From Candidatus Lindowbacteria bacterium RIFCSPLOWO2_12_FULL_62_27 (GTDB taxonomy: Bacteria; Lindowbacteria; 2-12-FULL-62-27), in contig MFPR01000043.1 of assembly GCA_001784175.1 (NCBI GenBank), positions 1 through 64,000 on the forward strand: a stretch of DNA of 64,000 nt, written 5' to 3'. The translations under genes were made by a program, and so were the position numbers. The notes under the pieces are model-generated. The model ran no database searches. It saw only the letters and a program-made list of their open reading frames with translations, and was not told the origin of the DNA. Below, one piece after another: positions 14,268-54,343 of this stretch (position 1 is its first letter; every line of letters starts with the position of its first letter).

Positions 14268-14294
14268 AAATGCATGGGTACTGGAGAATGTGGA

Positions 14295-15734: not shown

Positions 15735-15820
15735 GCGTCTTTTCTCATCGATCCTCTTGCTTTCTCTGTCGAGTCTGATTATTCTCAGGAATCGGGAGAG
15801 AATTCAAGTCGGAGGCAGCG

Positions 15821-17530: not shown

Positions 17531-17555
17531 CCGGCCGCGGGGGGACTTGAGGGGG

Positions 17556-39341: not shown

Positions 39342-42300
39342 GGCCGAACCCCTCTTTCTAAAGTACCTCGAGGCGGTCGAATCCGGCAAACCGCCGGATA
39401 CGACCCAGGCGCCCTACAACAATCCCGAATTTCTCAAAATTCTGGCCGCCCATACTCGAATCAACCGCGCCATCCACGGCGCCGGCGAGGAACTCAATCC
39501 CCTGCACATCGGCGGCATGCCGGACCTGCCGGAACTGGAGATCGTCGGCGAAATCGGCCGCGGCGGGATGGGGCTGGTCTTTCTCGCCCGCGACACCTCC
39601 CTCGACCGTGAAGTCGCCGTTAAAATCATCCCCAAACTGAACAATGAACAGATCATCAAGCGCTTCGCCCTCGAAAGTAAAATCCTCGCGAAACTCAACC
39701 ACCCCAACATCGTCGTCATCCACAGCCACGGCCAGAGCCAGGACCATTTCTATTACGTCATGGAAAAACTCGAGGGCGTCACCCTCAACCAGGTCATCGT
39801 CTGGCTGACCGAAAACCGGTTCGAATGCGCGTCCGACGTGTTCAAATTCATGGCCGGCGACATCAAGACCCTCCCGGCCGAAAATTCCGCCGCGACCCGC
39901 ATCGACGGGGAATACTGCCGCAAAATCGTCGAGATCGTCCGGCAGGCCAGCGACGCCCTCGCCTTCGCGCACGCGGGCGGCGTTGTCCACCGCGACATCA
40001 AACCCTCCAATCTCGTGTTCGACAAATTCGGCATGGTCAAAATTCTTGATTTCGGCATCAGTAAAATCGCGTCGCCCTCACAGCTCACCATGCCGGACGA
40101 ATTCGTCGGCACGCCCTACTACGTCTGCCCCGAAATGCTGCACGGCCGGGAGGCGACGCCGCAGGCCGACGTCTATTCGCTCGGCGTCGTCCTCTACGAG
40201 CTTCTCAGCCTGACCCTGCCGTTTGACTACGACTCGATCGACGCGCTGTATTCCGCGATCAAGGAAAAAATCCCGGCGCGGATCACCGCGATCCGCAGGG
40301 AACTGCCGCGCGACCTGGACGTCATCGTCCAGACGGCCATGGAAAAGGATCCGGAGCATCGATATCCCGACATGATGACGCTTCGCGCCGACCTCGAGTT
40401 CTTTCTCGGCAACAAACCTCTCAAATTCGCAAAGTACAGCCTCTGGCGAACCCTCGCCAAGCACGCCCACGCCCGGCGCAAGGGCCTCGCGGTCGGGTCG
40501 CTCGTGATGGCCGCCGCGGTCGTCGCGGCCAATTTCTGGATCACGTCCCTGCGGTCTCAACTGCGCGAACGTGAAACCATGCACGCCCTCACGGAAGTCC
40601 GCCAGAAGGAGAGGACCGAGCAGACGCGCAAACATGCGGCCGGCGCGTTTCTCAAGGCCATTTTTTTCAAGGCGCTCGATTTTCACGTCGGCGAAAAAAT
40701 GCGCGCCCTCGCCGATCTTCGCGATCAGGCGGCTGAAACCCGGGATCCGTTCATCTTCGGCCTGTACCTCTCGCTCAAAATATCTTCGGACGGCCGCACG
40801 CTCGCCATCGACGCCAAAAAAATAGATGCGGACTACGACTCCGCCGCGGCCGCGCTTCTCGCCCTCCAGCCCGATTGGTTGTCGGCCCGCCTCTTTTCCA
40901 AACTCGCGGGCGACCCAAACATCGAGCTGGCCGATCTGATCGACCGTACCGGCCACATGGCCGACGCCGCGCCGGCGTTTGAAGACAATTTCCTCGTCGG
41001 CGCGTTCCTGCTTCTGGCCGGCGACCCGGCCGACGCGGCCGGGTTTTTCAAAAAAAGTTTCGAATCCAAACGGGACTTTTTCCACGCCAAACTCTGCGAG
41101 GGCGCCGCCGTCGCCTACGCCGGCCGGCTCGACGACGGCATCGCGATCCTCCAGAACGACGTCATCCCCGCCGGCGACGAGATCAAGCTCTTTCTTCTCG
41201 CGGAGCTTTTTTCCCAGAAAAACGAGATCGTCAAGGCCAAATCCCACTACGACCGGCTGGTCGGCGCGTATCCCGAGAGCGTCTTCGGATTCCAGTACGT
41301 CAATTTTCTCGCGACCCACGGATTTGACGATGAGGCCGTGGCCTACGTCGCCCGGCGGGGCGATACCGAAATCAAGCTGATCTACCTCACGGCCAAATTC
41401 GCGGAAGCCAGATCGCCCGAGGAAGGCATCCGGTTCCTCGACGAGGCGTTCGCCATCCAGCCGTATCCGTACATGTATTCGCTGAAAGCCGAAGCGCTGG
41501 CGGGACTCGGAAAATACGACCAGGCCATCGAGACCCTCAAGCTGGTGGTCGACCTCAACCAGAAATCGAAATCGGATACGTACACCCGCGCGAATTATCT
41601 GACGATGATGGGCGACATCCTGGGCGACAAGGGCGATTTCTCGCAGGCGCGAAAACAGTACCGCGAAGCCTATGACATTTAGCGGAAATACAATGACCGC
41701 AATTCCGTCATCACCACGGCCCGGCGGCTCTGCACCCTCTACGCCGCGTCCGGAGACGATAACGCCTGCGAACCGCTGATCCACGAAGTTCTCAAACCGG
41801 ACTACGACGGCTGGCCCAACGGAAAACTTCTTTTCCTGAAAGATTTTATGCCGCCGGCGGAATTTCGAAATATCCTCCTCGCGCGGCTCGCCCAGCCCTC
41901 CGACCGGAACGTCACGCTCTATTTTACGTTTCTGACGTTTCTCGGCACGGAATCCGATACCGTCATGCAGTCCTACGCGCGAAACGCCGTGATCTCCGAC
42001 CCGGCCGACGACGCCGCGCGAACCTACCTCATCGACTACAGCATCCACGCCGGCAAATTCGACGAGGCCGACTACGAATGCCGCCAGTGGATGGCCCGCA
42101 AACCCCTCGATTACCGGCCCCTGCTCTCCATCGCCATGGTCCGCCGCCTGCGCCGGAATTTCAAAGACGCGATCGGCATGGCCGAATCGGCGCTCAAGGC
42201 GCACGAATCCTGGCGCGCGTCCGCGGACTACGTCGAACGCGCCGGCTACGACGCCGACATCAAAAAAATCTGGCAGGAACTCGCCTTCTGCCACGAATCG

Positions 42301-42681
42301 GCCGGCGACCTCGACCGCGCCGTCCTCTATCACAAAAAAATATTCGATTTCTCGCTGGAGGAAAACAACCGGACCGTCGACCCGTCCGTCTATATTTCCC
42401 TCATGGAAATTTACATCCGCGCCAAACGCTATGCCGACGCCCGCGAATTCGACAGGCTCGCCGGCCGATACCGCGTCTTCGAAAATCTCCCCGGCACGAA
42501 CCTCCGCATCCTCGAGGAAAGCCTCGCCGAGGACCTCACGTCGGCCCTCAACAAGCTCATCTACGTCCGGATCCTGCGCATCAACCACCCGCCCGCCCGT
42601 GCCGCCGACCTCGCCAGAAAATTCGCCGCCGAAGACCCCGTCTTCGCCGCCGTCTGGTCCGACCCCGGGGAGAGGCCATGA
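39331..42681 (+). pseudogene. Hanks-type Ser/Thr kinase-TM-TPR protein interrupted by a single in-frame TAG (41680-41682)
   Basis: GRGGMG, VAVK, HRDIKPSN, DFG, GTPYYVCPE, TM helix, TPRs. The same frame stays open after the TAG to 42681 with more TPR-like helices. Confidence 0.8.
42643..42675 (+). repeat. 33-bp direct repeat, copy 1 (3' end of kinase gene)
   Basis: TTCGCCGCCGTCTGGTCCGACCCCGGGGAGAGG, identical at 43734-43766. Confidence 0.95.
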
Positions 42682-42719
42682 TCCCTTCTGCTTTCTGCTC
42701 ATGCTCACGGCAGGGAGTT

Positions 42720-43118
42720 TTATATTCGGCGGATTCGAATATGATCGTCAGGGGTCTCCCATGGAATGATTTCGCCGTCAGGCCCGATTTCAAACAGCCG
42801 ATGTTTCGCATCCTTGTAATCTTCGAAAAATGTCCGCATGGCTTTGATCCAAATCCGCGTACGTTCTGAAATCGGCATCCGCTGAGGCACGTGGGAGAGA
42901 AGGACGATGGACTCGCCCATTTTCGGGAAATCGAAAAAATCCTCGTCCTGCGTCAGGAAGATGCAGGGTGTCCCTTCCAGGCGTCGAACGACGTCCCGGT
43001 CGCTCGTTCCGCGCAGTTTCAGAGGAATCATATGATCAACCTCGTAACCGAGCTTCTTAAGTCGGGCGTACAATTCCAGAGGGAAATTTTCGTCCAGCAG
43101 GATGCGACGGGATGTCAG
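42720..43118 (-). CDS. DUF5615 PIN-like toxin (probable CTG start)
   Basis: RILLDENFP..GYEVDH..SDRDV..FLTQDEDF. The conserved N-terminus lies upstream of the first canonical start (43073). Confidence 0.8.
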   Translation of the reverse strand: MTSRRILLDENFPLELYARLKKLGYEVDHMIPLKLRGTSDRDVVRRLEGTPCIFLTQDEDFFDFPKMGESIVLLSHVPQRMPISERTRIWIKAMRTFFEDYKDAKHRLFEIGPDGEIIPWETPDDHIRIRRI

Positions 43119-43345
43119 GCGGCGCTCCTTCGCGCGGGCGGTACATACTCGCTGATGTGCGCCGCATATCTCAACGCGTCCTTGATCTGGCGCGCCGTGA
43201 CTCTATAGCTGCCGCAAATGGCCTTCTCCGAATCGCCGGCCGCCAGCCCGCCGATGATGGTGGCCACATCGATCCGTGTTCCCTTCAAACACGGCTTTCC
43301 AAACCGAATATCCGGATTCTGGTCAATCCCTGGGAATATCTCCAT
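43115..43345 (-). CDS. DUF433 antitoxin
   Basis: NPDIRFGKPCLKGTRIDV..IKDALRYA. Confidence 0.9.
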   Translation of the reverse strand: MEIFPGIDQNPDIRFGKPCLKGTRIDVATIIGGLAAGDSEKAICGSYRVTARQIKDALRYAAHISEYVPPARRSAA

Positions 43346-43351
43346 GATCTA

Positions 43352-43380
43352 ACTTTATCGTATGGGCTTTTCGTTTTCAA
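43352..43380 (-). promoter_or_regulatory. Promoter, probably leaderless
   Basis: TTGAAA-17-TAAAGT, 6 nt before ATG 43345. Confidence 0.65.
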
Positions 43381-43443
43381 GGCATTCACCTCCCGTTCAC
43401 CTCATAGGAGCCTCATAGGAGGCGGCCCGAAGCCGCGCGGCAA

Positions 43444-43604
43444 GCGCGATTTGTGATTGGTGATTTCCGATTGATGATTTGTGATTGCGAAAATCACAAA
43501 TTGGAAATCACCAATCACAAATCACAAATAATCTTTTCCCTTGCCCCTGCCGTCCCCGCCGCCCGCCCGCCGTTCCGGGGAAGCGGGTCATGATGGACGC
43601 ATCC
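43444..43604 (+). repeat. 161-bp direct repeat, left copy (heptamer-rich palindrome + GC-rich repeat)
   Basis: Ungapped match to 52188-52348 with 7 mismatches by manual alignment; contains a perfect 21-bp inverted repeat (43448-43468/43503-43523). Confidence 0.92.
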
Positions 43605-43630
43605 CGCATCTTGCAACCGGGCTGCCGCCG
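43558..43630 (+). repeat. ~73-bp GC-rich inter-cassette repeat, copy 1
   Basis: GCCGCCCGCCCGCCGtTCCGGGGAAgCGGGTCATGATGG..GCATCC.GCATC..GCAA. Confidence 0.9.
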
Positions 43631-43733
43631 TCTCCATAAGTTTCCGAACCGGAACCTGCTCATCATGAATAAATTGCGTCACAACTTAACAACTAACGGT
43701 CTGGGCCGTGTTTCTTGTTTCTTGTTTCTAAAA

Positions 43734-43766
43734 TTCGCCGCCGTCTGGTCCGACCCCGGGGAGAGG
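43734..43766 (+). repeat. 33-bp direct repeat, copy 2
   Basis: Identical to 42643-42675. Confidence 0.95.
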
Positions 43767-43788
43767 GAGTAAGCAGGTACCCCTTTCC

Positions 43789-43827
43789 CCCTCTCCCGCC
43801 AAAGGCGGGAGAGGGACAGGGTGAGGG
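43789..43827. repeat. REP-like hairpin CCCTCTCCCGCC-aaa-GGCGGGAGAGGG + ACAGGGTGAGGG tail
   Basis: Perfect 12-bp stem. Confidence 0.75.
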
Positions 43828-43960
43828 TGGCCAAAAACTCTCTTCTCGCCCGTTCGCTTTCTATCCCGAATCCCGCTTATTAGAGTAGAGGGGCAATTTG
43901 GCGAGAGCGAATCAGAAGTAGTTCTCGATCTTTTACAAGTAAACAAAGGGGGGTCAGGAC

Positions 43961-44566
43961 ATGAAAAAATATTTGGCTCTGGGTTTGGCCATGGGTGTGT
44001 GTCTGAGTCTGTCGCCGGCCGCGTCGGCCGGATACGGGTCGATCAGCGGAATGGTTGGAATGAAAAGCGGCGCGGAAGCGGCGAAAGGCGGTTTTTATTC
44101 GGAAGCGGACTTCTGGTACAACCTGAACAGCGTGGTCGCGTTTGGGACGGGCGTCGGCTTCAGCTCCTATGACGGGCTCGACGACGTCGGCAAATTCATG
44201 ATGATCCCGGCCCTCCTCAACATGCGGATCTCGACGCCGACCGACCGGGTGAAATTCTACGGTGAAGGCGGCGTCGGGTATTACTTCTTCGATTTCAAGA
44301 TGGATCCTTCCATCACATCCGAGTTGGCCGCATACGGCATTGACGGCGAAGTCGACTTTGAGAGCACGACCGGCACGCATTTCGGCGGCGGCATGTTGGT
44401 GGCGCTTGGCCGGAGCACAGTCCTGGGCCTGAGCGTCCGCCGGGTCTCCGTCCAACCGCAGGCAACCGTGACCCTCCGGGATTCCTTCGGCCAGTCGTTG
44501 ACGCTCAGCGGCACGTCGGACCAGAGTTCGACGGTCTACGGCCTGAATCTATCGGTCAAGTTCTGA
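43961..44566 (+). CDS. Small outer-membrane beta-barrel protein
   Basis: Signal peptide (..AASA), alternating beta strands, FYGEGGVGYY, C-terminal Phe. Confidence 0.85.
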   Translation: MKKYLALGLAMGVCLSLSPAASAGYGSISGMVGMKSGAEAAKGGFYSEADFWYNLNSVVAFGTGVGFSSYDGLDDVGKFMMIPALLNMRISTPTDRVKFYGEGGVGYYFFDFKMDPSITSELAAYGIDGEVDFESTTGTHFGGGMLVALGRSTVLGLSVRRVSVQPQATVTLRDSFGQSLTLSGTSDQSSTVYGLNLSVKF

Positions 44567-44749
44567 CCGCGCGTTGACAGCCGAGAAAGCCGCAAGATAC
44601 GGTCATGCGATATTCACTTGTATTTATTGATGCCATGATCCCTGCATCCTTTTTGGCGCCGTTGCAAACCCGCGAGAGGGGGAGCCGGCCCTTGAAGGAT
44701 GGGGGTGTATCCGGTCGGCGCGGGAAATCCTGGTACGCCGGCCGCCCCC

Positions 44750-44822
44750 GCCGCCCGCCCGCCGATCCGGGGAACCGGGTCATGACGGCGGCATCCGGCA
44801 TCCGGCAATCTGGCAGCCTCGG
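44750..44822 (+). repeat. ~73-bp inter-cassette repeat, copy 2
   Basis: GCCGCCCGCCCGCCGATCCGGGGAACCGGGTCATGACGGCGGCATCCGGCATCCGGCAATCTGGCAGCCTCGG. Confidence 0.92.
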
Positions 44823-44859
44823 AACCCGTTTTCACAAGGATGACACCATTCGCGCCCCG

Positions 44860-45198
44860 TTAAAGAAACAGGACTTTGTTTTCGAGATCGGGGAAATCGT
44901 TCTCTCTGGCGACAGCCGCGACTTTTTTGATGAGGACCCCAACGCCGAATTTTCTTGGATGCGCGTAAATAATCCCGGGGTGCGAGGCCCCTTGTTGCCT
45001 GCGTTCATCCGCGATCTTCAAAAAATCCGCGTCGTGCGTCAAAAGGACGGACCCGGTCGCGGCGGCATACGACAGGTGCTGTTCATCCTCCGCGGCAAGC
45101 AGCCCCGCATCTTGGGCTGTCGAAATTGGGATGTCGAGACGCTTCAGTCCTTCTGCAATGTTCGAGGGAATGTTTTCGTCCAGATGGAGGGTGAGCAC
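44860..45198 (-). CDS. DUF5615 PIN-like toxin
   Basis: LHLDENI..GL....DEQHL..LLTHDADFL..HPGII. Confidence 0.88.
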   Translation of the reverse strand: MLTLHLDENIPSNIAEGLKRLDIPISTAQDAGLLAAEDEQHLSYAAATGSVLLTHDADFLKIADERRQQGASHPGIIYAHPRKFGVGVLIKKVAAVARENDFPDLENKVLFL

Positions 45199-45207
45199 AA
45201 CAAACCG

Positions 45208-45501
45208 TCAGAGGCTGTAAGACACGCCGAACTTCCTGGCAAGCCGCTTGACCGTCTTCTCGTCCTCCCGGATCTCGCAGTCGAGGGCGGCCTTGTGCCG
45301 GAAGTAGTAAGCCAGGGCTTCGTGAACCTGAAAAAGCCGGAGATGGGGATGCGCGTTCACAATTTCCTCAGCCGTCATGCCCAGCCGCTCATGTTCGACG
45401 GCAATCTGCGACACGCGAATTCGACTGCCGGCAACCACCGCTTTTTTCCCGCCCCCAGGCCTGCCGAGAAACGAAATACCCGGATACGTCATTGTCACCA
45501 T
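45208..45501 (-). CDS. DUF433 antitoxin
   Basis: AGSRIRVSQI..GMTAEEIV..HPHL...QVHEALAYY..I. Confidence 0.88.
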   Translation of the reverse strand: MVTMTYPGISFLGRPGGGKKAVVAGSRIRVSQIAVEHERLGMTAEEIVNAHPHLRLFQVHEALAYYFRHKAALDCEIREDEKTVKRLARKFGVSYSL

Positions 45502-45669
45502 AGTTCAACTCTCCTAAATCTCCGAAACAGAGTCAAGCAAAACCATCGGCAACGCATCTTCGCCGGCAAGTCAAGTAGTGGATGGCCGGACCGGCCGTCT
45601 CTCGCCGGCCTTCTGCTTCGCCCCTTTGCACTTGGCACTTTCCACTTTTCACTTTCCCCTGCCAAATCT

Positions 45670-45741
45670 GCCCGCCCGCCGATCCGGGGAACCGCGGCAT
45701 GATGGCGGCATCCGGCATCCGGCAACCGGGCTGCCGCCGGC
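45670..45741 (+). repeat. ~73-bp inter-cassette repeat, copy 3
   Basis: GCCCGCCCGCCGATCCGGGGAACCGCGGCATGATGGCGGCATCCGGCATCCGGCAACCGGGCTGCCGCCGG. Confidence 0.92.
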
Positions 45742-45757
45742 CCCGGGCTCCTAAACT

Positions 45758-46126
45758 TTACGTGTCGCTGGGTGTTGAAGCAGGCGGGAGAGGTTCTGAC
45801 AAGAGATTTTCAAGCGCCGTGATCAAGGGCGGCATATCCTGGGTTATGGTGCTCCACAGGATGTCGAGGTTGATGTCAAAGTATGCGTGGATCAGGCGGT
45901 TTCGCATGCCGACGATGTCCAGCCACGGGACATGCGGCTGTCTATTCCGTGTCTCGTCTGACACCTTGGTCGCGGCTTCGCCGACGATTTCAATGCATTT
46001 CACCAGAGAAAGCGCCAGCATTCGGCTGGAATCCAAGTCCGGGCGGGACCTGCCGCTGACAAATTCACGGGCTTCCTTTGCCGCGTCGAGCATATGCCGC
46101 AGGAGAACCAGATCAGGGTTCGGCGT
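45758..46126 (-). CDS. HepT/DUF86 HEPN ribonuclease toxin (probable ACG start)
   Basis: [23 protein letters not shown] (RX4HXY), ILWSTI..D.PPL. The frame extends to ACG 46126 after GAGGTG; first ATG is at 46093. Confidence 0.88.
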
Positions 46127-46421
46127 ACTGCACCTCGGCGCCGGCCATGACGTCGTCTCTAAAATACCGGCTCAGATCCGCAGGCGTCCGCAGATCCACT
46201 TTCCGGCCCGCAAAATGCTCCGACAGCTCCCGTTCCATCCGCGCCACCCCCAGAAAACCGGGTGTCCGGCCGGCCTCAAACTCGACCAGCACGTCCACAT
46301 CGCTGTCGGGACCGAACCGGTCCGTGAGCACCGATCCGAACAGCGAAAGCTTCCGAACGTGATTCCGCCGGCAAAATGTTCGAATCCCTTCTCTCGAAAA
46401 ATCGAGACGGTCCGCTTTCAT
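46113..46421 (-). CDS. MntA-like minimal nucleotidyltransferase antitoxin
   Basis: [22 protein letters not shown] (GSX10DXD), GRKVDLRT. Confidence 0.92.
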
Positions 46422-46514
46422 GGTGAAACTGTCCTAAATCCGAATCGGCAAGTCAAGCGCACTGCCGCCGCATCCGGCTTCGCCTCCAATGCCGCCCGCC
46501 GACTCGCCGCCCCC

Positions 46515-46591
46515 GCCGCCCGCCCGCCGATCCGGGGAACCGCGTCATGAGGACGGCATCACGCGTCTTGCAATCGGGTAGCCTCCGGCCC
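46515..46591 (+). repeat. ~73-bp inter-cassette repeat, copy 4
   Basis: GCCGCCCGCCCGCCGATCCGGGGAACCGCGTCATGAGGACGGCATCACGCGTCTTGCAATCGGGTAGCCTCCGG. Confidence 0.9.
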
Positions 46592-46733
46592 AGCACTCCC
46601 ATTCGCACCCTTCTGGACAAAATGCTCTATATCCGCGTCCTTCGAATCAACCGCAAAACCGGCTTGGCGGAGAAGCTCCATAAATCTTTCGCCGCGTCAG
46701 ATAAGAATTTCCTTCTGATCATGCAGGGTTCTT

Positions 46734-46878
46734 AACTCGAGTTACGCAAACGGCAAAAATGAGGATAAAATTGGCCACAAGAGGCACAAGAAGCACAAAA
46801 AATTTCTACTTTTATGGTTCTCTTGTGCCTCTTGAGTCAGTTTTGTGCCTCTTGTGTAAAAAATGCGTTACTCGTGTT
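46734..46878. mobile_element. MITE-like non-coding element (145 bp)
   Basis: 15-bp terminal inverted repeats AACTCGAGTTACGCA / TGCGTTACTCGTGTT (2 mismatches) flanked by CTT on both sides; internal inverted CACAAGAGG/CTTGTGCCT nonamer repeats. Confidence 0.6.
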
Positions 46879-46891
46879 CTTAAATCACTTC

Positions 46892-46966
46892 ACCCTTGCG
46901 GCCTTCACCGGCGTCAGTGACCGGAGATCGACGGTCTACGGATTGAATCTGTCGGTGAAGTTCTAA
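46892..46966 (+). pseudogene. 3' remnant of a paralog of the 43961-44566 barrel gene
   Basis: Encodes ..SDRRSTVYGLNLSVKF* versus ..SDQSSTVYGLNLSVKF*, with synonymous differences. Confidence 0.8.
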
Positions 46967-47043
46967 AATGTTCGCTTTTCCCTCAAAATCCCGCTGTATT
47001 CAATGGACAGGTTCTTTAACAACTGAAAACAGGAGGGATTGAA

Positions 47044-47586
47044 ATGATGAGAAACCGGTATCTTGGTCTGGGGTTGCTGATATCCATGTTCGTTTTATCA
47101 AGCGCGTTCGAAACACACGCGTCGCAATGGGACACGCCGAAATACAACTCATGGTGGGGAGGGATTGGTTCCGGCGGCGCCTGGACGTTGGGCGTGCGGG
47201 GAAAAAACCTTGGTATTGCCATGGGGGGTACAGGCGAAGCGCAAATGTCGGAGGACCAGATTCTGGACTGGGCGGTGCCGCATGATGACTACACGAGTCT
47301 GGGAAGAAAAAGCACCAGTTCAGCATGGGGCATTGATCTCCTGGGCTTTGTCAATCCGTTGAAATGGTGCTCGATTCAGATGGGTCTTGGCGTCTACAGC
47401 CAGGACTTTCGAGACGTCGCCCAGTCAAACGTCACCGGCTGGACATACACGCAGGGCAAAAGCAGTGAAACACAGATGGCCTATTCCGCGGGACTCCAAT
47501 TTTTGCCCTTCAATAAATTGACATTCGGCGTTGATTACCATTCAGTCCGCGGGGTTACGGGTGTCATCGGATTGAAATTCGATTGA
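47044..47586 (+). CDS. Exported, probable small beta-barrel protein
   Basis: AGGAGG RBS, signal peptide, amphipathic strands, ends GVIGLKFD. Confidence 0.75.
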   Translation: MMRNRYLGLGLLISMFVLSSAFETHASQWDTPKYNSWWGGIGSGGAWTLGVRGKNLGIAMGGTGEAQMSEDQILDWAVPHDDYTSLGRKSTSSAWGIDLLGFVNPLKWCSIQMGLGVYSQDFRDVAQSNVTGWTYTQGKSSETQMAYSAGLQFLPFNKLTFGVDYHSVRGVTGVIGLKFD

Positions 47587-47618
47587 CCGGCCGCCCGTGA
47601 AAAAAAGGAGAAGATGAC

Positions 47619-48209
47619 ATGAAAAAATTCCTTGGAATCCTCGCCGTGGCTCTTTTGTTCGCGTCGGTTGTATCCGCGAATGCGGAGGACGAGAAATACG
47701 TCACGACGCTGACCGCCAGAAGTTTTTCGTCGGTCGTCGTTCTTCAGTTTCGTCAGATGAGCCCGGACTGGATAGACCAGCATTTTACGACTGAAGATCA
47801 GAGGAAGACCGTCCGCAATGTGATCAAAGGCAAAGAAGGTCGCGGTCTGTTTGTCGTGGCTGGCGGCGACGGTTATTTCTTTCCCTCCAACATCCAATTT
47901 GTCCAGGGATATTCGGCGTATTCCGTCAACAATCGCGATATCCTGCCGATATCCGACAATTTCTCCGGCAAAATGGTCGAGGGAACCATGGCCATGGGGA
48001 TCATTTTTATTCCCGATCGGATCGATCTGTCGGAGAAGGTCGAAGTGCTCTACGACGATTCGAGAGAAGTGTTGAATGTTGCCGAGGTCGGGACGCCTGC
48101 GGTGCAATCTAAGCCGGACCGCTTGAACGATCTGAAAAAACGCAAGGATGAACTGGAACGCGAATACGCGTCGATCCTTGCTCAAATCGCCGAACTCGAA
48201 GGCAAATAG
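47619..48209 (+). CDS. Hypothetical exported protein with C-terminal coiled coil
   Basis: AAGGAG RBS, MKKFLGILAVALLFASVVSANA signal peptide. Confidence 0.8.
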   Translation: MKKFLGILAVALLFASVVSANAEDEKYVTTLTARSFSSVVVLQFRQMSPDWIDQHFTTEDQRKTVRNVIKGKEGRGLFVVAGGDGYFFPSNIQFVQGYSAYSVNNRDILPISDNFSGKMVEGTMAMGIIFIPDRIDLSEKVEVLYDDSREVLNVAEVGTPAVQSKPDRLNDLKKRKDELEREYASILAQIAELEGK

Positions 48210-48217
48210 AGGGGCGA

Positions 48218-49582
48218 TTGCCCGTGAAGCGGCGGAGATTGTTTACGCTTATTGCGGTGTTGCTTTCCCTCTGCCCGGCCGCAGTTGCGGACATCTCCAC
48301 GGAGGATGTACAGGTTCTTGATCGCCAGGCCCGCGAAGGCGATTCCCAGGCTCAGTACTATCTGGGCGTTGTCTTCTACGAGGGAATCCATCGGGAAAAA
48401 AACTGGGTTTCCGCCTCGGAGTGGGTTTATGCTTCCGCCATGCAGGGGCACCCTGACGCGGCCTATCAGGTTGGCCGGATGACGTATCTTGGCGAAGCAT
48501 TCAATCAGGATACGGCGCTGGGACTGGAGTGGATGACGTATGCGGCCCGGCTTGGACATCCGAAGGCCGCCGAGTTTCTCCGGCAATTGGCCTTGCGCTC
48601 CGATCGAGAATACTCTACAGGCAGTGAAGCCGGGATCCCCCCGGCCGAACCCGACCCCGAGGTGGACGACGAATCCGGCGACAATCCGGCGGTCGAGCAG
48701 GCCGAGGCACTGCCGACTCCACGGCAGATGTCTGCCGCCCGCATTGAGCTGAATTACCGGAGCCGAAAATACTTGGACGAGTCCACGGAATACCCGGCGG
48801 CGACCAAGCTGAAAATATGGCGGGATTTTGTGGCGGAATTCGGCCGAAGTAAATATGCCGGGTTTGCCCAAGGACGGATCGACTCGTGGGAAACCATATC
48901 GGCGGAAGAAGATGCACAGATGCGGTCGCAGGGATTCGGCACAATTGAAAGTCTTCAAAAGGCGAATGGACTCGATCCGGATGGCCGGATGGGACCGCGG
49001 ACGCGGGCGTTGCTGAAGTCGAAAATCCGAAGCCGGGACTCAGAACCGGGCGCCGAATCCGGCCGCAAGCCCAATGAACCGCTCGCCGCCGCGGATGTTT
49101 CGGCAAGACACGACTTGAAGAAAGTCGCCGCGGCCGTACTGGACCAGGACCCGCGAAACAAGGGCATCTCAGTCCGGCTCCTTCGAAAATCCCAGGGACA
49201 AAAATCCGTCCTGGTTTTTGATCTCCTGGCGGTTTCCGGAGACAACAGCGCTATGGATGTCTTTCGAGTGTTCAATCAGGCCGCCGAAAAAATCCAAAAC
49301 GAACATTTTGATGAAATCCGTCTCGCGTACAAAGGCGATGTCCGGTTCACGATCGATGGAGATTATTTTCAAACCCTGGGGGCGGAATATTCCTCGCAGA
49401 ACCCGGTTTATACGCTGAGGACGTTTCCGGAAAATCTTTATCGCCCGGACGGATCAAAGGCATTTGGAACGTGGTCCGGAGGCATATTGGGCGTCGTCAA
49501 AGAACAGATGGACGATTTCCATCGATTCCACAGGGAATGGTACATGAACGACCTCATCGCCGCCGCGGGAGCATCCAGGTAA
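48218..49582 (+). CDS. Exported SEL1-repeat protein with peptidoglycan-binding-like motif and unknown C-terminal domain
   Basis: AQYYLGVVFYEG..SAMQGHPDA (SEL1); LQKANGLDPDGRMGPRT (PG_binding_1-like). Confidence 0.78.
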   Translation: MPVKRRRLFTLIAVLLSLCPAAVADISTEDVQVLDRQAREGDSQAQYYLGVVFYEGIHREKNWVSASEWVYASAMQGHPDAAYQVGRMTYLGEAFNQDTALGLEWMTYAARLGHPKAAEFLRQLALRSDREYSTGSEAGIPPAEPDPEVDDESGDNPAVEQAEALPTPRQMSAARIELNYRSRKYLDESTEYPAATKLKIWRDFVAEFGRSKYAGFAQGRIDSWETISAEEDAQMRSQGFGTIESLQKANGLDPDGRMGPRTRALLKSKIRSRDSEPGAESGRKPNEPLAAADVSARHDLKKVAAAVLDQDPRNKGISVRLLRKSQGQKSVLVFDLLAVSGDNSAMDVFRVFNQAAEKIQNEHFDEIRLAYKGDVRFTIDGDYFQTLGAEYSSQNPVYTLRTFPENLYRPDGSKAFGTWSGGILGVVKEQMDDFHRFHREWYMNDLIAAAGASR

Positions 49583-49716
49583 CCGACCTCCTCGGACAGA
49601 CGTGACGGCAGATGTGTCAGTCCAGCCGCGAAAAACGTCACCGCAAATGTTCGGTTTTACTTCCGCCAGCCGCTGTCAATGGTAGAGATAGTTCTTTCAC
49701 AAGTGCAAAGGGGGTA

Positions 49717-49914
49717 GTGATTGTGCGTATCCTGAATGTTGCGTGGTCATCTCTGTCCGCCTGTCTGTGTCTGCCCGGGGCTGTTTTTCTATCCCTGCTG
49801 CCGTTCCCAACTGAATCGTTCGCCGGCGCGCCCGGCATCGACGCGTTCACCCGGCACGGCGCGGGCGTCCGGGCGGTGGGGATGACCTCGGACAAACTCA
49901 TCGCCTTGGATTGA
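49717..49914 (+). pseudogene. 5' fragment of a PorV/PorQ (UPF0164)-like outer-membrane protein
   Basis: Signal peptide then AFTRHGAGVRAVGM, resembling the F...G.GARA.GM N-terminal motif; stops 9 codons later. Confidence 0.5.
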
Positions 49915-50141
49915 ATATGAGGATCCAATGAACTGGCCGTCGACCGCCTGTAGGAATAGTCTTGGCTCAAACTTTAAGTTACCCTCAGTGGTTCTATCTA
50001 TCTCTGAATCGACAAAGAGGTGGCTCATGTATCGGACTACCTCGACAGTCGGGAAGTATGGGATTCATCCTATCGGCTTCGGGCCGCACGCATCCGATTC
50101 AAGCCGGACGCGGGGGTCTGTGTGTGCGGTTTCCCTTCCCT

Positions 50142-50312
50142 TCACGCTGGTTGTGAGGTTTCGTCCGGTGGGGTCTTGTCTGGCTGGGTTAGCCCGAGAG
50201 CCAGTCTCACGGCATGGTCGACTTTTGTCAGAAGGCTCGCGGGGGTGTGTCCGATGATGCGTTCTAATGGAAATGGAACGAGAACGATGTCGCCCCGGTT
50301 ATATCTCCCCAT
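50142..50312 (-). pseudogene. MazF/PemK-like toxin with in-frame internal deletion (56 aa)
   Basis: MGRYNRGDIVLVPFP is joined directly to LERIIG...LLTKVDHAVRLALGL; the K.RP catalytic segment is missing. Start overlaps the partner's stop. Confidence 0.75.
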
Positions 50313-50511
50313 ACCGGTCCTCGGCCGGGTCGTCCCAGATGGGCCGAAGCGCCGTCTCCTGCGCCTTCAAGGTCTGGTCCGCAACGGACCCGCCAATCAT
50401 CAGGATGATCCGGGCTTGAGCGCCATCGGGAATCCGGTCGCTGATCTCCTTCGGAATCTGCAACGGCTTGCCCGGCTCAACCCTGGCATCAAACTCGTAC
50501 GCGAACGTCAT
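50299..50511 (-). CDS. Putative antitoxin partner of the MazF-like gene
   Basis: YEFDARVEPGKPLQIP.. N-terminus and acidic C-terminal IWDDPAEDRY motif; start 50511 or 50571. Confidence 0.65.
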   Translation of the reverse strand: MTFAYEFDARVEPGKPLQIPKEISDRIPDGAQARIILMIGGSVADQTLKAQETALRPIWDDPAEDRYGEI

Positions 50512-50578
50512 GCCCGAAGTGTGCCAATCCTTTCGGCGGTCGTCAACTGAAGTGGACCCCATGACCGGCATGTGGGAA

Positions 50579-50935
50579 CTAACTTTTCGTCAATTTCGGA
50601 TCTGGGCCTTCATGAATCGTGAGCTTGCCGACATAGGATTCCGGACTTGCTGTCTGGAAGAGCTGTTCAACGGCCGCGATTTCTTCGTCGGCTTTCGTGG
50701 TGCCCAGCCGAAGGAGGATGATGCCCAGATGCGGTGTCGGGCGGAGATTTTTCTGAACGGCGAAATCCTTGTCGTTGGTGATCAGAAGATCGTATCGGCC
50801 CTGAATGGCATGAACCAGCTCCCCGTTTTCGACGCCCAAGAGCGCGGCATCCTTGGCGTGGTCGGTTTCGTGGCCACGGGATTTAAGACGTTGTCCGAGG
50901 GAATATGGAACATTTTCATCAAGCAGGATTCGCAT
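50579..50935 (-). CDS. DUF5615 PIN-like toxin
   Basis: MRILLDENVP..GHE..LLITNDKDF..HLGIILLR. Confidence 0.9.
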   Translation of the reverse strand: MRILLDENVPYSLGQRLKSRGHETDHAKDAALLGVENGELVHAIQGRYDLLITNDKDFAVQKNLRPTPHLGIILLRLGTTKADEEIAAVEQLFQTASPESYVGKLTIHEGPDPKLTKS

Positions 50936-51170
50936 GAGTAAACGCCGACGCCAGACAGGAGCTGAAATGGATCACGGCCCGGATGTCCTCCCGTGTCAGG
51001 GTGGGGTAGTTTTCGAGAATTTCCTCGAAATTGCTCCCGCCCTCAAGATTGTCCAGAACGACGTACAGCGGGATTCGCGTCCCTTTGACGCACGGAGTCC
51101 CGCCCATGATGCGGGGGTCGACGCTGATCCGAGGATGATCTTTCAGCAACTCTCTGTAATTCGGCTCCAC
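50919..51170 (-). CDS. DUF433 antitoxin
   Basis: ISVDPRIMGGTPCVKGTRIPL..EILENYPTLTREDI. Confidence 0.92.
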   Translation of the reverse strand: MEPNYRELLKDHPRISVDPRIMGGTPCVKGTRIPLYVVLDNLEGGSNFEEILENYPTLTREDIRAVIHFSSCLASAFTHANPA

Positions 51171-51177
51171 GAAAATG

Positions 51178-51206
51178 ATTATAACCGATCAACCCGAGAA
51201 GGGCAA
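51178..51206 (-). promoter_or_regulatory. Promoter, probably leaderless
   Basis: TTGCCC-17-TATAAT, 7 nt before GTG 51170. Confidence 0.65.
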
Positions 51207-51351
51207 ACGATGGTAAATGCCGGACTGATCGCCGGCAACCGTCTCCGGCGGCCGGACATGAGACGCCGGAAGTCTTGCAATCTTGCAATATCCGGGCGCG
51301 CTTTCCAATGCCCCGGACGCCGGAATATGTACGCCCGTGCCGCAACAACCC

Positions 51352-51741
51352 TTATGGAAAGATTCGCAGGACCTTTCTGGGAAATTCGAGATGAAGATTA
51401 AAACGGGACAGGAAATCCATGCCCAGAAGTCCGTCGGCAGGCATGTTCGGAGGAATGGAATGAACGCATACCTTGAAATTCCTGACCGATTGACCCAGCG
51501 CTTCGAATCTCGGGACCCTCATGCGCGGCGCGTACTCAAGCGTGCTGGCGGTCGTGAGAGCGCACCGTTCGCGCGATGCGGCCGGATCACAGCCAATCTC
51601 AAGCAATTGAACTGGCGCCACGATTGTGTAAACCGATCCTGTGTCCAGAATCAGCCGCAAGAGGCTGGCGCCCTTGGGTCCGTGTATCGCCGCGTCAACA
51701 ATGATCAGCCGGGCGGTTGGATCGATCGGAAACTCAAACAC
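51352..51741 (-). CDS. Retropepsin-like (clan AA) aspartic protease
   Basis: LILDTGSVYT catalytic motif and DGLLGMDFL. Confidence 0.9.
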   Translation of the reverse strand: MFEFPIDPTARLIIVDAAIHGPKGASLLRLILDTGSVYTIVAPVQLLEIGCDPAASRERCALTTASTLEYAPRMRVPRFEALGQSVRNFKVCVHSIPPNMPADGLLGMDFLSRFNLHLEFPRKVLRIFP

Positions 51742-51744
51742 GAG

Positions 51745-52017
51745 TCAGGCCCAGGCCGGCCAGACGGAAATGCAAACTGCCGTATCCTCCGGAATTGTTT
51801 CGTCCGAACAGACCGTCATCAGCATCCGGCCCCGGTCTCTGACCTTCATGGCCACCCGATGAATTTCCATTCGGTCGGGACTGTGAGCCAGGAGCCGCCC
51901 GGTCTTGGCCGTGGTCGTGGCCGGGTCGTATTCCGCCACCTCAATGAGGAGCCACGTCTTTCTTTTCTTAAACCGCCTCCGAATCGTTTCGATGCCCTCA
52001 ATACGCCCCCGTTTCAT
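51745..52017 (-). CDS. Small hypothetical partner protein (DUF5678-like)
   Basis: I.RRF...WLLIEV..G.LLAHSPDR; stop is 3 nt before the protease start. Confidence 0.7.
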   Translation of the reverse strand: MKRGRIEGIETIRRRFKKRKTWLLIEVAEYDPATTTAKTGRLLAHSPDRMEIHRVAMKVRDRGRMLMTVCSDETIPEDTAVCISVWPAWA

Positions 52018-52059
52018 GTCAAAGTTTTCCTACATACCTTCAGGCAAGTCAAGCGCGCA

Positions 52060-52130
52060 GCCGCCCGACCGCCGATCCGGGGCACAGGGTCATGATGCCC
52101 GCATCCCGCATCTTGCAATCGGGCGCACCC
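52060..52130 (+). repeat. ~73-bp inter-cassette repeat, copy 5
   Basis: GCCGCCCGACCGCCGATCCGGGGCACAGGGTCATGATGCCCGCATCCCGCATCTTGCAATCGGGC. Confidence 0.88.
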
Positions 52131-52187
52131 TTGGCACGATGCAGCCGGAGGAACACATTCAATGCAGGCAATGCACAGACGAGGAAG

Positions 52188-52348
52188 GCGCGATTTGTGA
52201 TTGGTGATTTCCGTTTGGTGATTTGTGATCGCGAAAATCACAAATTGGAAATCCCAAATCACAAATCACAAATAATCTTTTCCCTTGCCCCTGCCGTCCC
52301 CGCCGCCCGCCCGCCGATCCGGGGAACCGGGTCATGATGGACGCATCC
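52188..52348 (+). repeat. 161-bp direct repeat, right copy
   Basis: Matches 43444-43604 at offset 8744. Confidence 0.92.
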
Positions 52349-52377
52349 GGAATCCGGAAAGCTGGCAGCCTCCGGCC
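52302..52377 (+). repeat. ~73-bp inter-cassette repeat, copy 6
   Basis: GCCGCCCGCCCGCCGATCCGGGGAACCGGGTCATGATGGACGCATCCGGAATCCGGAAAGCTGGCAGCCTCCGG. Confidence 0.92.
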
Positions 52378-54343
52378 CTATTTTCTCCTTCTTGTCATTT
52401 CTGTTTTCGGGTTCGTGCTGCCGGCCTGCGGGAAAATGATGTCGGACAGCATCGTTGTTTTCCAAGTGCAGGTTTCGGGCGGCTTGGCGAGCGATGAATT
52501 CATCTCCCTGTATAATCCTCGTCCCGAAACCGTTTCTCTCACTCCCTATCGGATTTCCATCACTACAGGGGTGAGCAATACGCTGTCCACCTACGATGCC
52601 GGACTCGGTGGGAGCATGGGGCCGTTTGGGTTTTATCGAATCACACTTTCGACCGCCGACACCGCCTTAAGAGATGCCGGATTCGACGGGGTTGGCGATA
52701 CCGTCGGCTCGGGTGAGTTTTGCGATTGCGCATCCGTCGAGCACGGCGGGATATTTCCGGGACGTATCGGGCCTCACGGCCGATTCGGCATGGACCGACA
52801 CGGATGGGTACGCGCAGGACACGTTTACGCTCGGGTCGGCCCGCGGCGTGTATCTGGTGACGGCGACCAGCGACTCGAACCCGATCCAAAAGACGATGTT
52901 CTATGCCTATGCGGACGGGTTCGATCTTGCGGCAAAGACGTGGAAACTCGTCGCGCCGAACAAGGAAGCGTCAGCGGTATCGTTGATGGCCCCGGTTTTG
53001 CATCCCATCAGCACGCTTCTGTCCCGATCGACCGTCTACGAGTGGAACGAGAACGCGGGAGTCAATGCCGGGCTGTATGATTATTCCAAAGCGACGGGCA
53101 TCGCGCGTGGGCGGGGATACTGGATCTACGACGACACCGGCGTTGGTGTCGTCTTTTCGGGAAGCTCCGGATTCGACACCGTCACCGTTTCGCTTACGGC
53201 CGGCTGGCACATCATTGGCACCGGAGAATATTTTTACATCGACTGGGATTCCGATGTCCGGTTCGATACCGGCAGTACGAAACTGACGCCCGCGCAGGCG
53301 GCCGCGGCCGGGGTCATTAACAATTCCGTCTACTGGTACCATGGCAGCGGCTACTACCGCGGGCCGGATCCGCTGACGCCGGCGCTCTCGCGCGTTCAGC
53401 TCAAACCGTCCGTCGGATTTTTCATGTATACCGCGCTGGCCTGCAACATGAGCCTATATCCGAATCCTCGGTCGCCGGCGGAGACGGCGACGCAGATTCT
53501 GAATCAGGCGCCGGCGCTGGTGACGAGAAACGCGAAAGATGGAACCCCCCACCCAGCCTCCCCCACAAGGGGGGAGGAGTTGTACGGCGCGGGCGCCTCG
53601 AAGTACACGCAATCGCAACCGGCCGAAACCAACTGGGACGTACGGTTCATCCTGTCCGGCGGCGGGCTAATGGAGTTTCAGAATTACATCGGAGTGAAAC
53701 CGTCGGCGACGGACGTGCTGATGTATGACCGCCGCGCGCCACCGCTGGCGGCCGGGCGATACCTTGCGATGAGTTTTGCCGGCGAAGATGGCGTGCGAAA
53801 GGCCGCGAGTTACGTGGAGCCGATCCGGACGGCGGCCAAATGGGATTTTCAAATTCAGAGCGACCTGACCGGCCAGGCGGTGACGCTGGCGTGGGACAAT
53901 CTGCAGAGCATTCCGGAGAAATTTGCCGCGTACCTCATCACACCCGCCGGGCCGCCGGTCGACATGCGCAAGAGCGCGTCGTTCAGTTTCGCCACGAACG
54001 CGGACGGCCCGACGGCCGCGTCATTCAGCGCGATCGCGGGACAGCCGGACTATGTCGCGGCGTTTCTGGCGCCGCCGCTGGACCGGGGGTTCACATTCGC
54101 GTATCCGAACCCGGGACCCGACGGCAACAGCTTCGTCTATTTCAAACACAACGTTACGGCCGGCGACGTTCGAATCAAAATTTTCGACGTTGGCGGCCGG
54201 CTCGTGCGGGAACTGACCGGAAGCGTCTCGCCGATCCCGTGGGACACGACCAACCGATTCGGCCAGAAACTCGGGTCGGGCGTGTACCTCTACATCGTCG
54301 AGGGCAGCGGCGCGAGGCTCGTGGACAGGGTGGCGATCGTACG

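What the first reader, a model, noticed from the sequence alone, without database searches (positions are those of the whole stretch)
43558..52377. Toxin-antitoxin cassette array punctuated by a ~73-bp repeat that is not attC, with no integrase in view
Seen: six co-oriented, ungapped-alignable copies of GCCGCCCGCCCGCCGATCCGGGGAACCGGGTCATGA..GCATCC.GCATC..GCAA.CGG.C.GCC at 43558, 44750, 45670, 46515, 52060 and 52302. Copies 2-3-4 tightly bracket two unrelated TA operons (DUF433/PIN and MNT/HEPN), ending within ~20-40 bp of the toxin stops. Copies 1 and 5 lie upstream of two more pairs. All pairs are on the minus strand, and five of six show their own promoter. Established: integron TA cassettes are self-promoted and separated by attC sites. 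Inference: this looks like a cassette-capture system, but the repeat has no RYYYAAC..GTTRRRY cores, so it may be an undescribed recombination site or mobile repeat that recruits TA modules.
Basis: partly seen in the sequence, partly recalled or inferred. Interest (0 to 1): 0.85.

Follow-up and report, generated by a model that had tools for sequence, protein, structure and literature searches.

The report
Private repeat bounding stacked toxin-antitoxin modules
Six copies of an ~80-base repeat found nowhere else separate unrelated toxin-antitoxin gene pairs in one 9-kb island of an uncultured groundwater bacterium; it looks like a cassette stack, but it is not an integron and nothing shows a dedicated recombination enzyme.

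Summary
Six co-oriented copies of a 65-88-nt repeat (R1-R6; 74-89% alike) lie at the stated places. A profile of them finds only these six in the 4.39-Mb genome. R2-R3-R4 bracket two unrelated TA operons 14 and 39 nt past the toxin stops.

The cassette-capture reading is only partly supported.
- R has no attC cores, no hairpin better than shuffles and no dyad symmetry.
- No tyrosine or serine recombinase lies on the 211-kb contig, and no integron integrase in the genome.
- No relative of R turned up in any collection searched. The phylum has four genomes on hand, so strains cannot be compared.

New points:
- R carries a Shine-Dalgarno-like run and a TCATGA stop/start overlap on the + strand.
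- R6 supplies the start codon of a lipoprotein gene.
- R3, R4 and R5 are followed by one shared promoter/leader module in front of unrelated genes.
- Blocks inside R are reshuffled among copies.
- Duplicated gene 3' ends and gene remnants flank the TA insertions.

Best reading (0.4): R is a junction sequence copied as modules were stacked and swapped by ordinary recombination between copies. Rivals are a trans-acting site-specific system, a regulatory element, or inert duplication scars.

The parts
43549..43626 (+). R1, repeat copy. It lies upstream (minus-strand sense) of TA1, with the palindrome between them. Its ATG at 43590 is open for 60 codons, into the duplicated TPR 3' end.
44741..44820 (+). 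R2, repeat copy, 39 nt past the stop of the PIN-like toxin of TA2. No gene follows it on the minus strand. Its ATG is at 44782.
45670..45743 (+). R3, repeat copy between TA3 (14 nt past the HepT stop) and the TA2 upstream region. ATGA is at 45699-45702.
46506..46591 (+). R4, repeat copy upstream of TA3. On the + strand it abuts a TPR-gene C-terminal remnant, in frame with its ATG at 46547.
52060..52124 (+). R5, the most diverged copy. It runs directly into the shared promoter/leader module of the 52017-50142 minus-strand operon.
52293..52378 (+). R6, repeat copy. Its ATG at 52334 is the first start codon of the LTD / type IX-sorted lipoprotein-like gene on the + strand.
42720..43345 (-). TA1: DUF433 (43115-43345) and DUF5615 (42720-43073).
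44860..45501 (-). TA2: DUF433 (45208-45501) and DUF5615/PIN_10 (44860-45198).
45758..46421 (-). TA3: MNT nucleotidyltransferase (46113-46421) and HepT (45758-46093).
50142..52017 (-). Six-gene minus-strand cluster: 90 aa (51745-52017) + retropepsin-like aspartyl protease (51352-51741); DUF433 (50919-51170) + DUF5615 (50579-50935); 90 aa (50299-50571) + 56 aa (50142-50312) with no family.
43448..43529 (.). Palindrome 'pal' (33-38-nt arms with 7-nt periodicity), next to R1. It has a twin at 52192-52273 next to R6. pal plus R is 96% identical over 161 nt between the two places.
52192..52273 (.). Second copy of pal, between R5 and R6.
42643..42675 (+). Last 33 nt before the final codon of the TPR gene. 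It is repeated perfectly at 43734-43766, so TA1 + pal + R1 lie between two copies.
43734..43766 (+). Second copy of the 33-nt TPR 3' end (100% identical).
44519..44564 (+). 3' end of the 201-aa secreted-protein gene (43961-44566). It is repeated at 46919-46964 (87%), so R2-TA2-R3-TA3-R4 lie between the two copies.
46919..46964 (+). Displaced copy of that gene's 3' end, with no gene body before it.
46601..46711 (+). Remnant of the C-terminus of a paralogue of the TPR gene (41% identity over 37 aa, E 4e-8). It starts within 10 nt of the right edge of R4.
46422..46468 (-). Shared promoter/leader module (TTGACTTGCC ... TAGGA ... ATG) upstream of TA3. Homologous stretches lie at about 52018-52064 and, with a 43-nt insert, at 45502-45585.
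   Evidence: (D6, D18)

Best explanation
R is a private junction sequence. It has been copied within this one island as toxin-antitoxin modules were stacked and exchanged by ordinary recombination (unequal crossing-over and gene conversion) between R copies. It is not the site of a dedicated integrase.

On the + strand, R reads like an operon junction: a C-rich gene end, a GGGGAA Shine-Dalgarno-like run, then TCATGA (stop overlapping start). R6 still serves as the real 5' end of the lipoprotein-like gene.

Each module on the minus strand is R + promoter/leader + antitoxin + toxin. A crossover between an incoming or sister-copy R and a resident R gives R-module-R, which explains n modules between n+1 co-oriented repeats.

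Shown: the copies, their restriction to this locus, the unrelated modules between them, the reshuffled blocks inside R, the shared leader, the gene-end duplications and gene remnants at the edges, and the absence of integron features.

Inferred: that recombination at R, rather than unrelated insertions, placed the modules; and that host general recombination, not a specific enzyme, does the work.
For: (1) All 6 of 6 copies lie within 9 kb and none elsewhere in 4.39 Mb.
(2) The modules between copies are unrelated (DUF433/PIN-like versus MNT/HepT). The three DUF433/DUF5615 pairs are only 22-30% and 19-25% identical in protein. The non-coding R copies are 74-89% identical in DNA. So R was not simply co-duplicated with the genes.
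(3) Mosaic structure (alignments, read by eye): block D1 has type a in R1, R4, R5 and type b in R2, R3, R6. Block D2 has type x in R1, R3 and type y in R2, R4, R6. All four combinations occur. R1 and R6 share their left half (161 nt at 96% with pal) but differ on the right. At least two crossover points are needed, which fits general recombination or conversion and not one fixed cut site.
(4) R edges are ragged: left flanks are shared by R1/R3/R6 and by R2/R4.
(5) There is no dyad symmetry, no hairpin and no recombinase in cis.
(6) Rearrangement scars lie exactly at the R/TA borders: a perfect 33-nt and an 87% 46-nt duplication of gene 3' ends, and a TPR C-terminal remnant abutting R4.
(7) R3, R4 and R5 are each followed by one homologous leader in front of non-homologous first genes.
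(8) One Logan contig in 1 of 4 runs joins 52256 to 43513 ('goes back 8744', with 60 shared letters). This is what recombination between pal-R1 and pal-R6 would give, but it may be an assembly path through the repeat.
Against: There is no direct observation of exchange. All 4 runs laid show the same order with 0 differences, and no contig skips a single module (contigs drop rare variants).

The central 33-35 nt of R are much better kept (9 of 35 columns vary) than its right part (21 of 39). Conversion alone does not predict this, and it hints at a constrained function.

Eighty nt at 75-90% identity is a poor substrate for RecA-type recombination.

The + strand reading frame runs open from the ATG of R2 to the TGA of R3, from R3 to R4, and from R5 to R6. 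It comes from 0.12, 0.133 and 0.355 for open frames of those lengths at random genome positions, each times 1/3 for the phase. This model does not explain the pattern.

R2 and R6 drive or bound nothing obvious on the minus strand.
Confidence: 0.4

Rival explanations
1. Dedicated site-specific recombination site. R would be the attachment site of a recombinase encoded elsewhere in the genome. That enzyme would excise and insert circular [R + TA] modules, as an integron does with attC but with a different kind of site.
For: The array has n modules between n+1 co-oriented repeats, placed tightly against the toxin stops. Copies are private to one locus. The core of R is well conserved. The genome holds 14 tyrosine-recombinase matches and 1 serine-recombinase match on other contigs. 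TA1 lies between perfect 33-nt copies of a gene's 3' end, as after integrase-type insertion. The TPR 3' end aligns to the left half of R1/R6 at 33 of 46 positions, weakly above shuffles (12-23 of 500 shuffles reach the score).
Against: R has no dyad symmetry above shuffles and no single-strand hairpin. It has no attC cores. No IntI passes the cut-off. No recombinase lies within 211 kb. No R-like sequence sits beside any recombinase gene, because R occurs nowhere else. The mosaic needs at least two crossover points. Homologous promoter/leader modules sit in front of unrelated genes, whereas independently made cassettes would carry their own.
Confidence: 0.15
2. Cis-regulatory element of the TA operons. 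One version is a sigma-54-type promoter: GG-N10-GC on the minus strand, upstream of and co-directional with the operons. Other versions are another protein-binding site or leader, or a C-rich Rho-loading insulator against antisense (+ strand) transcription. The element would have spread with its leader as a reused upstream module.
For: 4 of 6 copies (R1, R3, R4, R5) lie upstream of and co-oriented with a minus-strand operon. R3, R4 and R5 are joined to one shared promoter/leader. GGC-N8-TTGC at sigma-54 spacing is present in R1-R4. That pattern occurs 0.086 times per kb per strand genome-wide, so about 0.015 is expected per 90-nt element on both strands. rpoN and 17 strong activator genes exist. 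Reuse of near-identical promoters before unrelated genes is a described phenomenon (PMC3575422; search listing and start of abstract only).
Against: The -24/-12 positions are not the best-kept part of R. R5 and R6 lack the GG or the GC. The only 2 sites matching the strict consensus plus W, of 4 TGGCAC-N5-TTGC matches in the genome, differ from R's CGGCAG/AGGCTG. No activator gene lies on the contig. The distance from the R core to the shared -35-like hexamer is roughly 13, 60 or 90 nt in the three operons, which is odd for an activator site. R2 and R6 have nothing to regulate. No other TA locus in the genome carries R. No word from R is strongly enriched elsewhere (at most 9-fold). There is no Rfam match.
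Confidence: 0.2
3. Inert scars. R would be a fragment of an old gene junction, carried along by segmental duplications and deletions in an unstable island. The TA modules would have arrived by unrelated events, and R would play no part in gaining or expressing them.
For: The island is full of duplication debris: a TPR remnant, a displaced gene 3' end, 33-nt and 46-nt duplications, and a 161-nt pal+R duplication. Variable sites show no codon periodicity (9/9/12), so R is not coding. R6 is simply the 5' end of a gene. GC content is 0.50-0.60 across 42.6-52.8 kb against 0.60-0.65 outside.
Against: This reading needs two unrelated TA operons to have landed independently within 14-39 nt of R edges. 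Neutral scars should decay faster than the neighbouring genes, yet R copies are 74-89% alike while paralogous TA proteins are 19-30% alike. All six copies keep one orientation.
Confidence: 0.2

Closest known systems
Integron cassette arrays and CALINs (clusters of attC sites lacking an integrase)
   Same: Both have co-oriented repeats between short, often self-promoted TA modules, n modules between n+1 sites, and no integrase nearby (as in a CALIN).
   Different: R has no R''/R' cores and no imperfect-palindrome hairpin. No IntI is present in the genome. R lies on the promoter side of each module and shares a leader with it. Only 6 sites exist, in one genome.
dif modules of Acinetobacter plasmids (Xer-dependent; papers seen as search listing and abstract starts only)
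   Same: Both are small modules, often TA pairs, bounded by short repeated sites and moved by recombinases encoded elsewhere (host XerC/XerD).
   Different: pdif sites are 28-bp dyads that alternate in orientation (recalled). R is about 80 nt, has no dyad, and all copies point the same way.
Reused ('putative mobile') promoters: near-identical upstream regions before unrelated genes (PMC3575422; listing and abstract start)
   Same: R plus the TTGACTTGCC leader stands in front of three operons whose first genes are not homologous.
   Different: Three of the six copies (R1, R2, R6) are not followed by that leader. Promoter activity is untested.
Tandem accretion of islands at one att site (attL/attR repeats of a gene end)
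   Same: Duplicated gene 3' ends flank the insertions (33 nt perfect, 46 nt at 87%). R6 rebuilds the 5' end of the adjoining gene.
   Different: The inserts are about 1 kb, carry no integrase, and no integrase lies nearby. The same genome has a classical case for comparison: a tRNA-flanked island with an integrase-like gene on contig C17.

Membership tests
Integron / CALIN (attC) | R'' RYYYAAC and R' GTTRRRY cores at the ends of each site | tested here: not met
   Regex on both strands of 42000-54000 gave 0 matches. AAC/GTT triplets are not conserved among the copies. The motif itself is recalled.
Integron / CALIN (attC) | Imperfect palindrome that folds as a single-stranded hairpin | tested here: not met
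   DNA and RNA folds of both strands gave z-scores of 0.03 to 2.56 in 11 of 12 folds; only R5 RNA reached -2.09. The consensus folds have a positive covariation term. There is no dyad above shuffles.
Integron / CALIN (attC) | Integron integrase (IntI) in the genome | tested here: not met
   For TIGR02249, the best place scores 111.6 + 84.7 bits against a cut-off of 265, and the match skips model positions 179-217. None of the 14 PF00589 matches lies on C43. The genome is 94% complete.
Integron / CALIN (attC) | Co-oriented sites separating short cassettes | tested here: met
   Six co-oriented copies with spacings of 1192, 917, 848, 5545 and 242 nt.
Xer-dependent dif modules | 28-bp site made of two 11-nt inverted arms around a 6-nt centre, with alternating orientation | tested here: not met
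   The best 11-nt arms with 5-8 nt spacers match at 7-8 of 11, like the shuffles and at no common position. All copies are co-oriented.
REP / MITE | Many copies dispersed over the genome; terminal inverted repeats | tested here: not met
   Only 6 hits, all in one 9-kb stretch, with the next hit at E 0.35. No inverted termini were found.
Sigma-54 promoter | GG and GC elements 10 nt apart (TGGCAC-N5-TTGC), with rpoN and an activator | tested here: inconclusive
   GGC-N8-TTGC is present in 4 of 6 copies but diverges from the genome's own strict sites. rpoN is present. 17 strong activator genes exist, none on C43.
Reused upstream / promoter module | The same upstream sequence before non-homologous genes | tested here: met
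   R3, R4 and R5 plus the shared leader precede DUF433, MNT and an unassigned 90-aa gene. Activity was not tested.
Known RNA family | Match to an Rfam model | tested here: not met
   cmscan at E<=1 gives nothing on R. Only sub-threshold miRNA-model hits fall on the palindromes.

The most novel reading that the evidence does not exclude
R is the site of an undescribed, integrase-in-trans cassette system of a barely sampled candidate phylum. In this reading an ~80-nt non-palindromic site stacks self-promoted TA modules. Its built-in Shine-Dalgarno-like run and ATGA stop/start overlap would keep the opposite strand translatable from site to site, so that insertions do not cut off the downstream lipoprotein-like gene.
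Probability: 0.12. Interest if true: 0.8.

Novelty: new variant of a known kind. Interest (0 to 1): 0.4.

Why it matters
If R only marks where modules were stacked by ordinary recombination, this is a tidy example of how a TA/defence islet grows without any mobile-element machinery, in a phylum with four genomes on hand. If R is a true recombination site, it would be a second kind of cassette system besides integrons and dif modules, and the open frame running from site to site would be a new way of making insertions harmless to neighbouring genes. Either way, the locus gives concrete junctions that can be tested in the raw reads of seven public metagenome runs.

Tried and rejected
- **attC / integron:** rejected.
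- **dif-like or any dyad site:** rejected.
- **REP/MITE:** rejected.
- **Known RNA family:** none.
- **tRNA or tmRNA target:** none in the window.
- **Protein-coding repeat:** no codon periodicity. The + strand ORFs between copies have no Pfam family.
- **Relatives of R:**
  - No relative among the 40 other genomes. 5 of them gave weak matches (E 0.003-0.007), and the two checked (in G009 and G018) lie inside unrelated genes.
  - The 3 other genomes of the phylum gave one 38-nt match at E 4e-4, which scores 9.9 bits with the profile.
  - Genome contigs: strict pattern 0; loose pattern gave 17 single hits of at most 21 bits.
  - Metagenome contigs: only the window's own contig and a 100% identical 5.2-kb contig.
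  - Viral contigs: 0. Plasmids: 0.
- **Synteny in relatives:** the TPR protein has no homologue in the 3 other genomes of the order.
- **Earlier notes of this scan:** nothing to show.
- **Homology of R to the TPR gene:** only a weak local alignment to its last 46 nt, and the profile finds nothing there. Left open.
- **Expression:** no RNA run holds the locus.
- **Contig layout:** no contig skips a single module, but these are contigs of one strain and cannot show rare forms.
- **Supplementary files of papers:** not consulted.

Full report
**Observation.** A BLAST self-comparison trims the cores to 43549-43626, 44741-44820, 45670-45743, 46506-46591, 52060-52124 and 52293-52378. I call them R1 to R6. 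Pairwise identity over 74 core columns is 0.74-0.89.

A profile built from the six and run over the whole assembly finds exactly these six at E 3e-23 to 3e-19. The assembly has 4,388,263 bases in 44 contigs, and the window is the first 64 kb of a 211-kb contig. The next hit has E 0.35. A more permissive scan of 40-56 kb finds no degenerate seventh copy. So the repeat is real, far beyond chance, and confined to this locus. It is not a genome-wide REP or MITE.

**Genes.** Pfam confirms the pairs, all on the minus strand:
- DUF433/DUF5615 (TA1: 43115-43345 and 42720-43073)
- DUF433/DUF5615-PIN_10 (TA2: 45208-45501 and 44860-45198)
- MNT/HepT (TA3: 46113-46421 and 45758-46093)
- A six-gene cluster at 52017-50142: an unassigned 90-aa gene with a retropepsin-like protease, a third DUF433/DUF5615 pair, and two small unassigned ORFs

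The R2 core ends 39 nt from the PIN-like stop, and the R3 core ends 14 nt from the HepT stop. The three DUF433 proteins are 22-30% identical and the three DUF5615 proteins 19-25%, while the non-coding R copies are 74-89% identical. R therefore did not simply duplicate together with its neighbours.

**Tests of known kinds.**
- *attC:* there is no RYYYAAC...GTTRRRY arrangement on either strand of 42-54 kb.
- *Structure:* single-strand folds of either strand are no better than dinucleotide shuffles in 11 of 12 cases. Consensus folds have no compensatory support. Eleven-nt arms with 5-8-nt spacers match at 7-8 of 11, as in shuffles, and at no common position.
- *RNA families:* Rfam gives nothing for R, and the window has no tRNA.
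- *Recombinases:* the genome has 14 tyrosine-recombinase matches and one serine recombinase, all on other contigs. None reaches the integron-integrase cut-off.

Membership in integrons/CALINs, Xer dif modules or REP/MITE families fails on defining features.

**Relatives.** None could be found.
- The phylum holds four genomes in the collection, and R is not in the other three.
- The weak matches checked in other genomes (G009, G018) lie inside unrelated genes.
- Pattern scans gave nothing in species-representative genomes with the strict pattern. The loose pattern gave 17 isolated hits, none extending beyond the pattern.
- JGI metagenome contigs gave only the window's own contig and a 100% identical fragment.
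- Viral contigs and plasmids gave nothing.
- Seven public metagenome runs from four studies hold the locus. The four I laid carry the same sequence with 0 differences, and their contigs break in the repeats.

**What R looks like on the + strand.** R reads as a C-rich run, then GGGGAA, seven or eight bases, then TCATGA. That is a Shine-Dalgarno-like run followed by a stop codon overlapping a start codon.

The ATG of R6 at 52334 is the first possible start of the gene that follows. That gene continues with a hydrophobic stretch and a cysteine (a lipoprotein-like signal, judged by eye) and a weak Lamin-tail match. A type IX sorting domain lies in the overlapping next frame.

The ATG of R4 is in frame with a remnant of the C-terminus of a paralogue of the upstream TPR gene, which starts within 10 nt of the edge of R4 (E 4e-8). 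The ATG of R1 is open into a perfect 33-nt copy of the TPR gene's own 3' end.

The frame from the ATG of R2 stays open to the TGA of R3 (306 codons). The same holds from R3 to R4 (283 codons) and from R5 to R6 (81 codons, through the palindrome). The other two + frames hold 2-9 stops in each segment.

Frames of those lengths are open at 0.12, 0.133 and 0.355 of random genome positions. With 1/3 for the phase of each stop, the joint chance is about 2e-4, before allowing for the fact that I noticed it afterwards. These ORFs have no Pfam family, and the variable sites of R show no codon periodicity (9/9/12). I do not take them for genes, and I leave the pattern as unexplained.

**What R looks like on the minus strand.** Four copies (R1, R3, R4, R5) lie upstream of an operon. 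R3, R4 and R5 are each followed by one homologous leader (TTGACTTGCC ... TAGGA ... ATG) in front of non-homologous first genes, with a 43-nt insert in the TA2 version. So the reused unit is larger than R.

R1-R4 carry GGC-N8-TTGC at sigma-54 spacing. rpoN and 17 strong activator genes exist. But the pattern occurs 753 times in the genome, and the genome's strict sites look different. R5 and R6 lack it, and no activator gene is on the contig.

**History of the locus.** The stretch 42.6-52.8 kb is lower in GC than its flanks and is full of rearrangement scars:
- A perfect 33-nt copy of the TPR 3' end on either side of TA1-pal-R1
- An 87% 46-nt copy of the 3' end of the 201-aa gene on either side of R2-TA2-R3-TA3-R4
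- The TPR remnant at R4
- A 161-nt pal+R duplication at 96%, 8744 nt apart

Blocks inside R are reshuffled. Reading the alignments, the segment after the ATGA has type a in R1/R4/R5 and type b in R2/R3/R6. The next segment has type x in R1/R3 and type y in R2/R4/R6. All four combinations occur, and R1 and R6 share only their left halves. At least two crossover points are needed.

**Reading.** The array of unrelated modules between n+1 co-oriented repeats argues that R took part in placing them. The ragged edges, the multiple crossover points, the missing dyad and the absent enzyme argue for general recombination between copies rather than a dedicated site-specific system (0.4).

A trans-acting site-specific system stays possible (0.15). 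The perfect 33-nt duplication is in its favour, as is a weak likeness of the TPR 3' end to the left half of R (33 of 46 positions; 12-23 of 500 shuffles reach the score). A regulatory role (0.2) fits the position, the orientation and the better-kept core, but not R2, R6 or the variable spacing. Inert scars (0.2) fit the debris, but not the tight placement or the conservation.

**Two loose ends from the contigs.** One contig in one of four runs joins 52256 to 43513, which is a circle or tandem-duplication junction through pal+R, or an assembly path. Contigs in three of four runs, at about half depth, join 43450 through three extra letters to 42634. That would be a form in which the TA1 upstream region meets the TPR 3' end without pal and R1. 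Each run also has 27-40 contigs laid at 90-95% identity, so a relative may be present in these samples. Neither joint could be followed further.

**Comparison with what is known.**
- *Integron cassette arrays/CALINs:* the same layout, but a different site and no IntI.
- *Acinetobacter dif modules:* also TA modules with the enzyme encoded elsewhere, but 28-bp alternating dyads. The site features are recalled, and the papers were seen only as listing and abstract starts.
- *Reused promoters:* PMC3575422, listing and abstract start only.
- *Island accretion at att sites:* a classical example sits on contig C17 of the same genome.

I found no description of a TA array with such a repeat in the one full-text search aimed at it. 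This is not proof that none exists.

Noticed in passing
window 43448-43529 and 52192-52273; L013 (G000:C17) 7166-7247 and 9768-9844: An ~82-nt AT-rich palindrome whose arms are built of 7-nt periodic units. It has four copies in the genome. The two on C17 flank a 683-aa repetitive gene inside an island bounded by a perfect 41-nt repeat of part of a tRNA gene, with a 529-aa integrase-like ORF beside it. It could be a MITE-like element or a bidirectional terminator.
   Followed up: partly
window 46757-46855: A second, unrelated long hairpin (sub-threshold Rfam miRNA-model hit), lying between the TPR remnant and the displaced gene 3' end.
   Followed up: no
L015 (G000:C4:213000-232900), about 8200-18400: Another locally confined repeat system. 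It has 7-12 copies of 70-185-nt units, some ending in a strong terminator-like hairpin with a T run, among small ORFs. More periodic palindromes (AGACAGA units) lie nearby. This may be a second module array of a different kind.
   Followed up: partly
window 52334-53080 and 52674-54347: The lipoprotein-like gene that starts in R6 is split over two overlapping frames: a weak Lamin-tail match in the first and a type IX sorting domain in the second. Contigs of other runs covering 52308-53162 have the same sequence, so this is a frameshifted gene or two genes, not an assembly slip.
   Followed up: partly
window 43073-43115: The conserved N-terminal part of the TA1 DUF5615 toxin (aligned to LLDEN... 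in its two paralogues) lies upstream of the first ATG/GTG/TTG of its ORF. The gene may use an unusual start or be decaying.
   Followed up: no
window 43450 joined to 42634; 52256 joined to 43513: Logan contigs show two non-reference joints. The first, with three extra letters between the sides, appears in 3 of 4 runs at depth 3-4. The second ('goes back 8744') appears in 1 of 4 runs.
   Followed up: partly
window about 43785-43830: A GC-rich hairpin downstream of the second 33-nt copy. Depth roughly doubles there, and many contigs carry unrelated loose ends, as if the motif were shared with other organisms in the samples.
   Followed up: no
whole genome G000: Short-repeat families of 152, 74, 71 and 65 linked places exist genome-wide (self-BLAST clustering). 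They were not examined.
   Followed up: no
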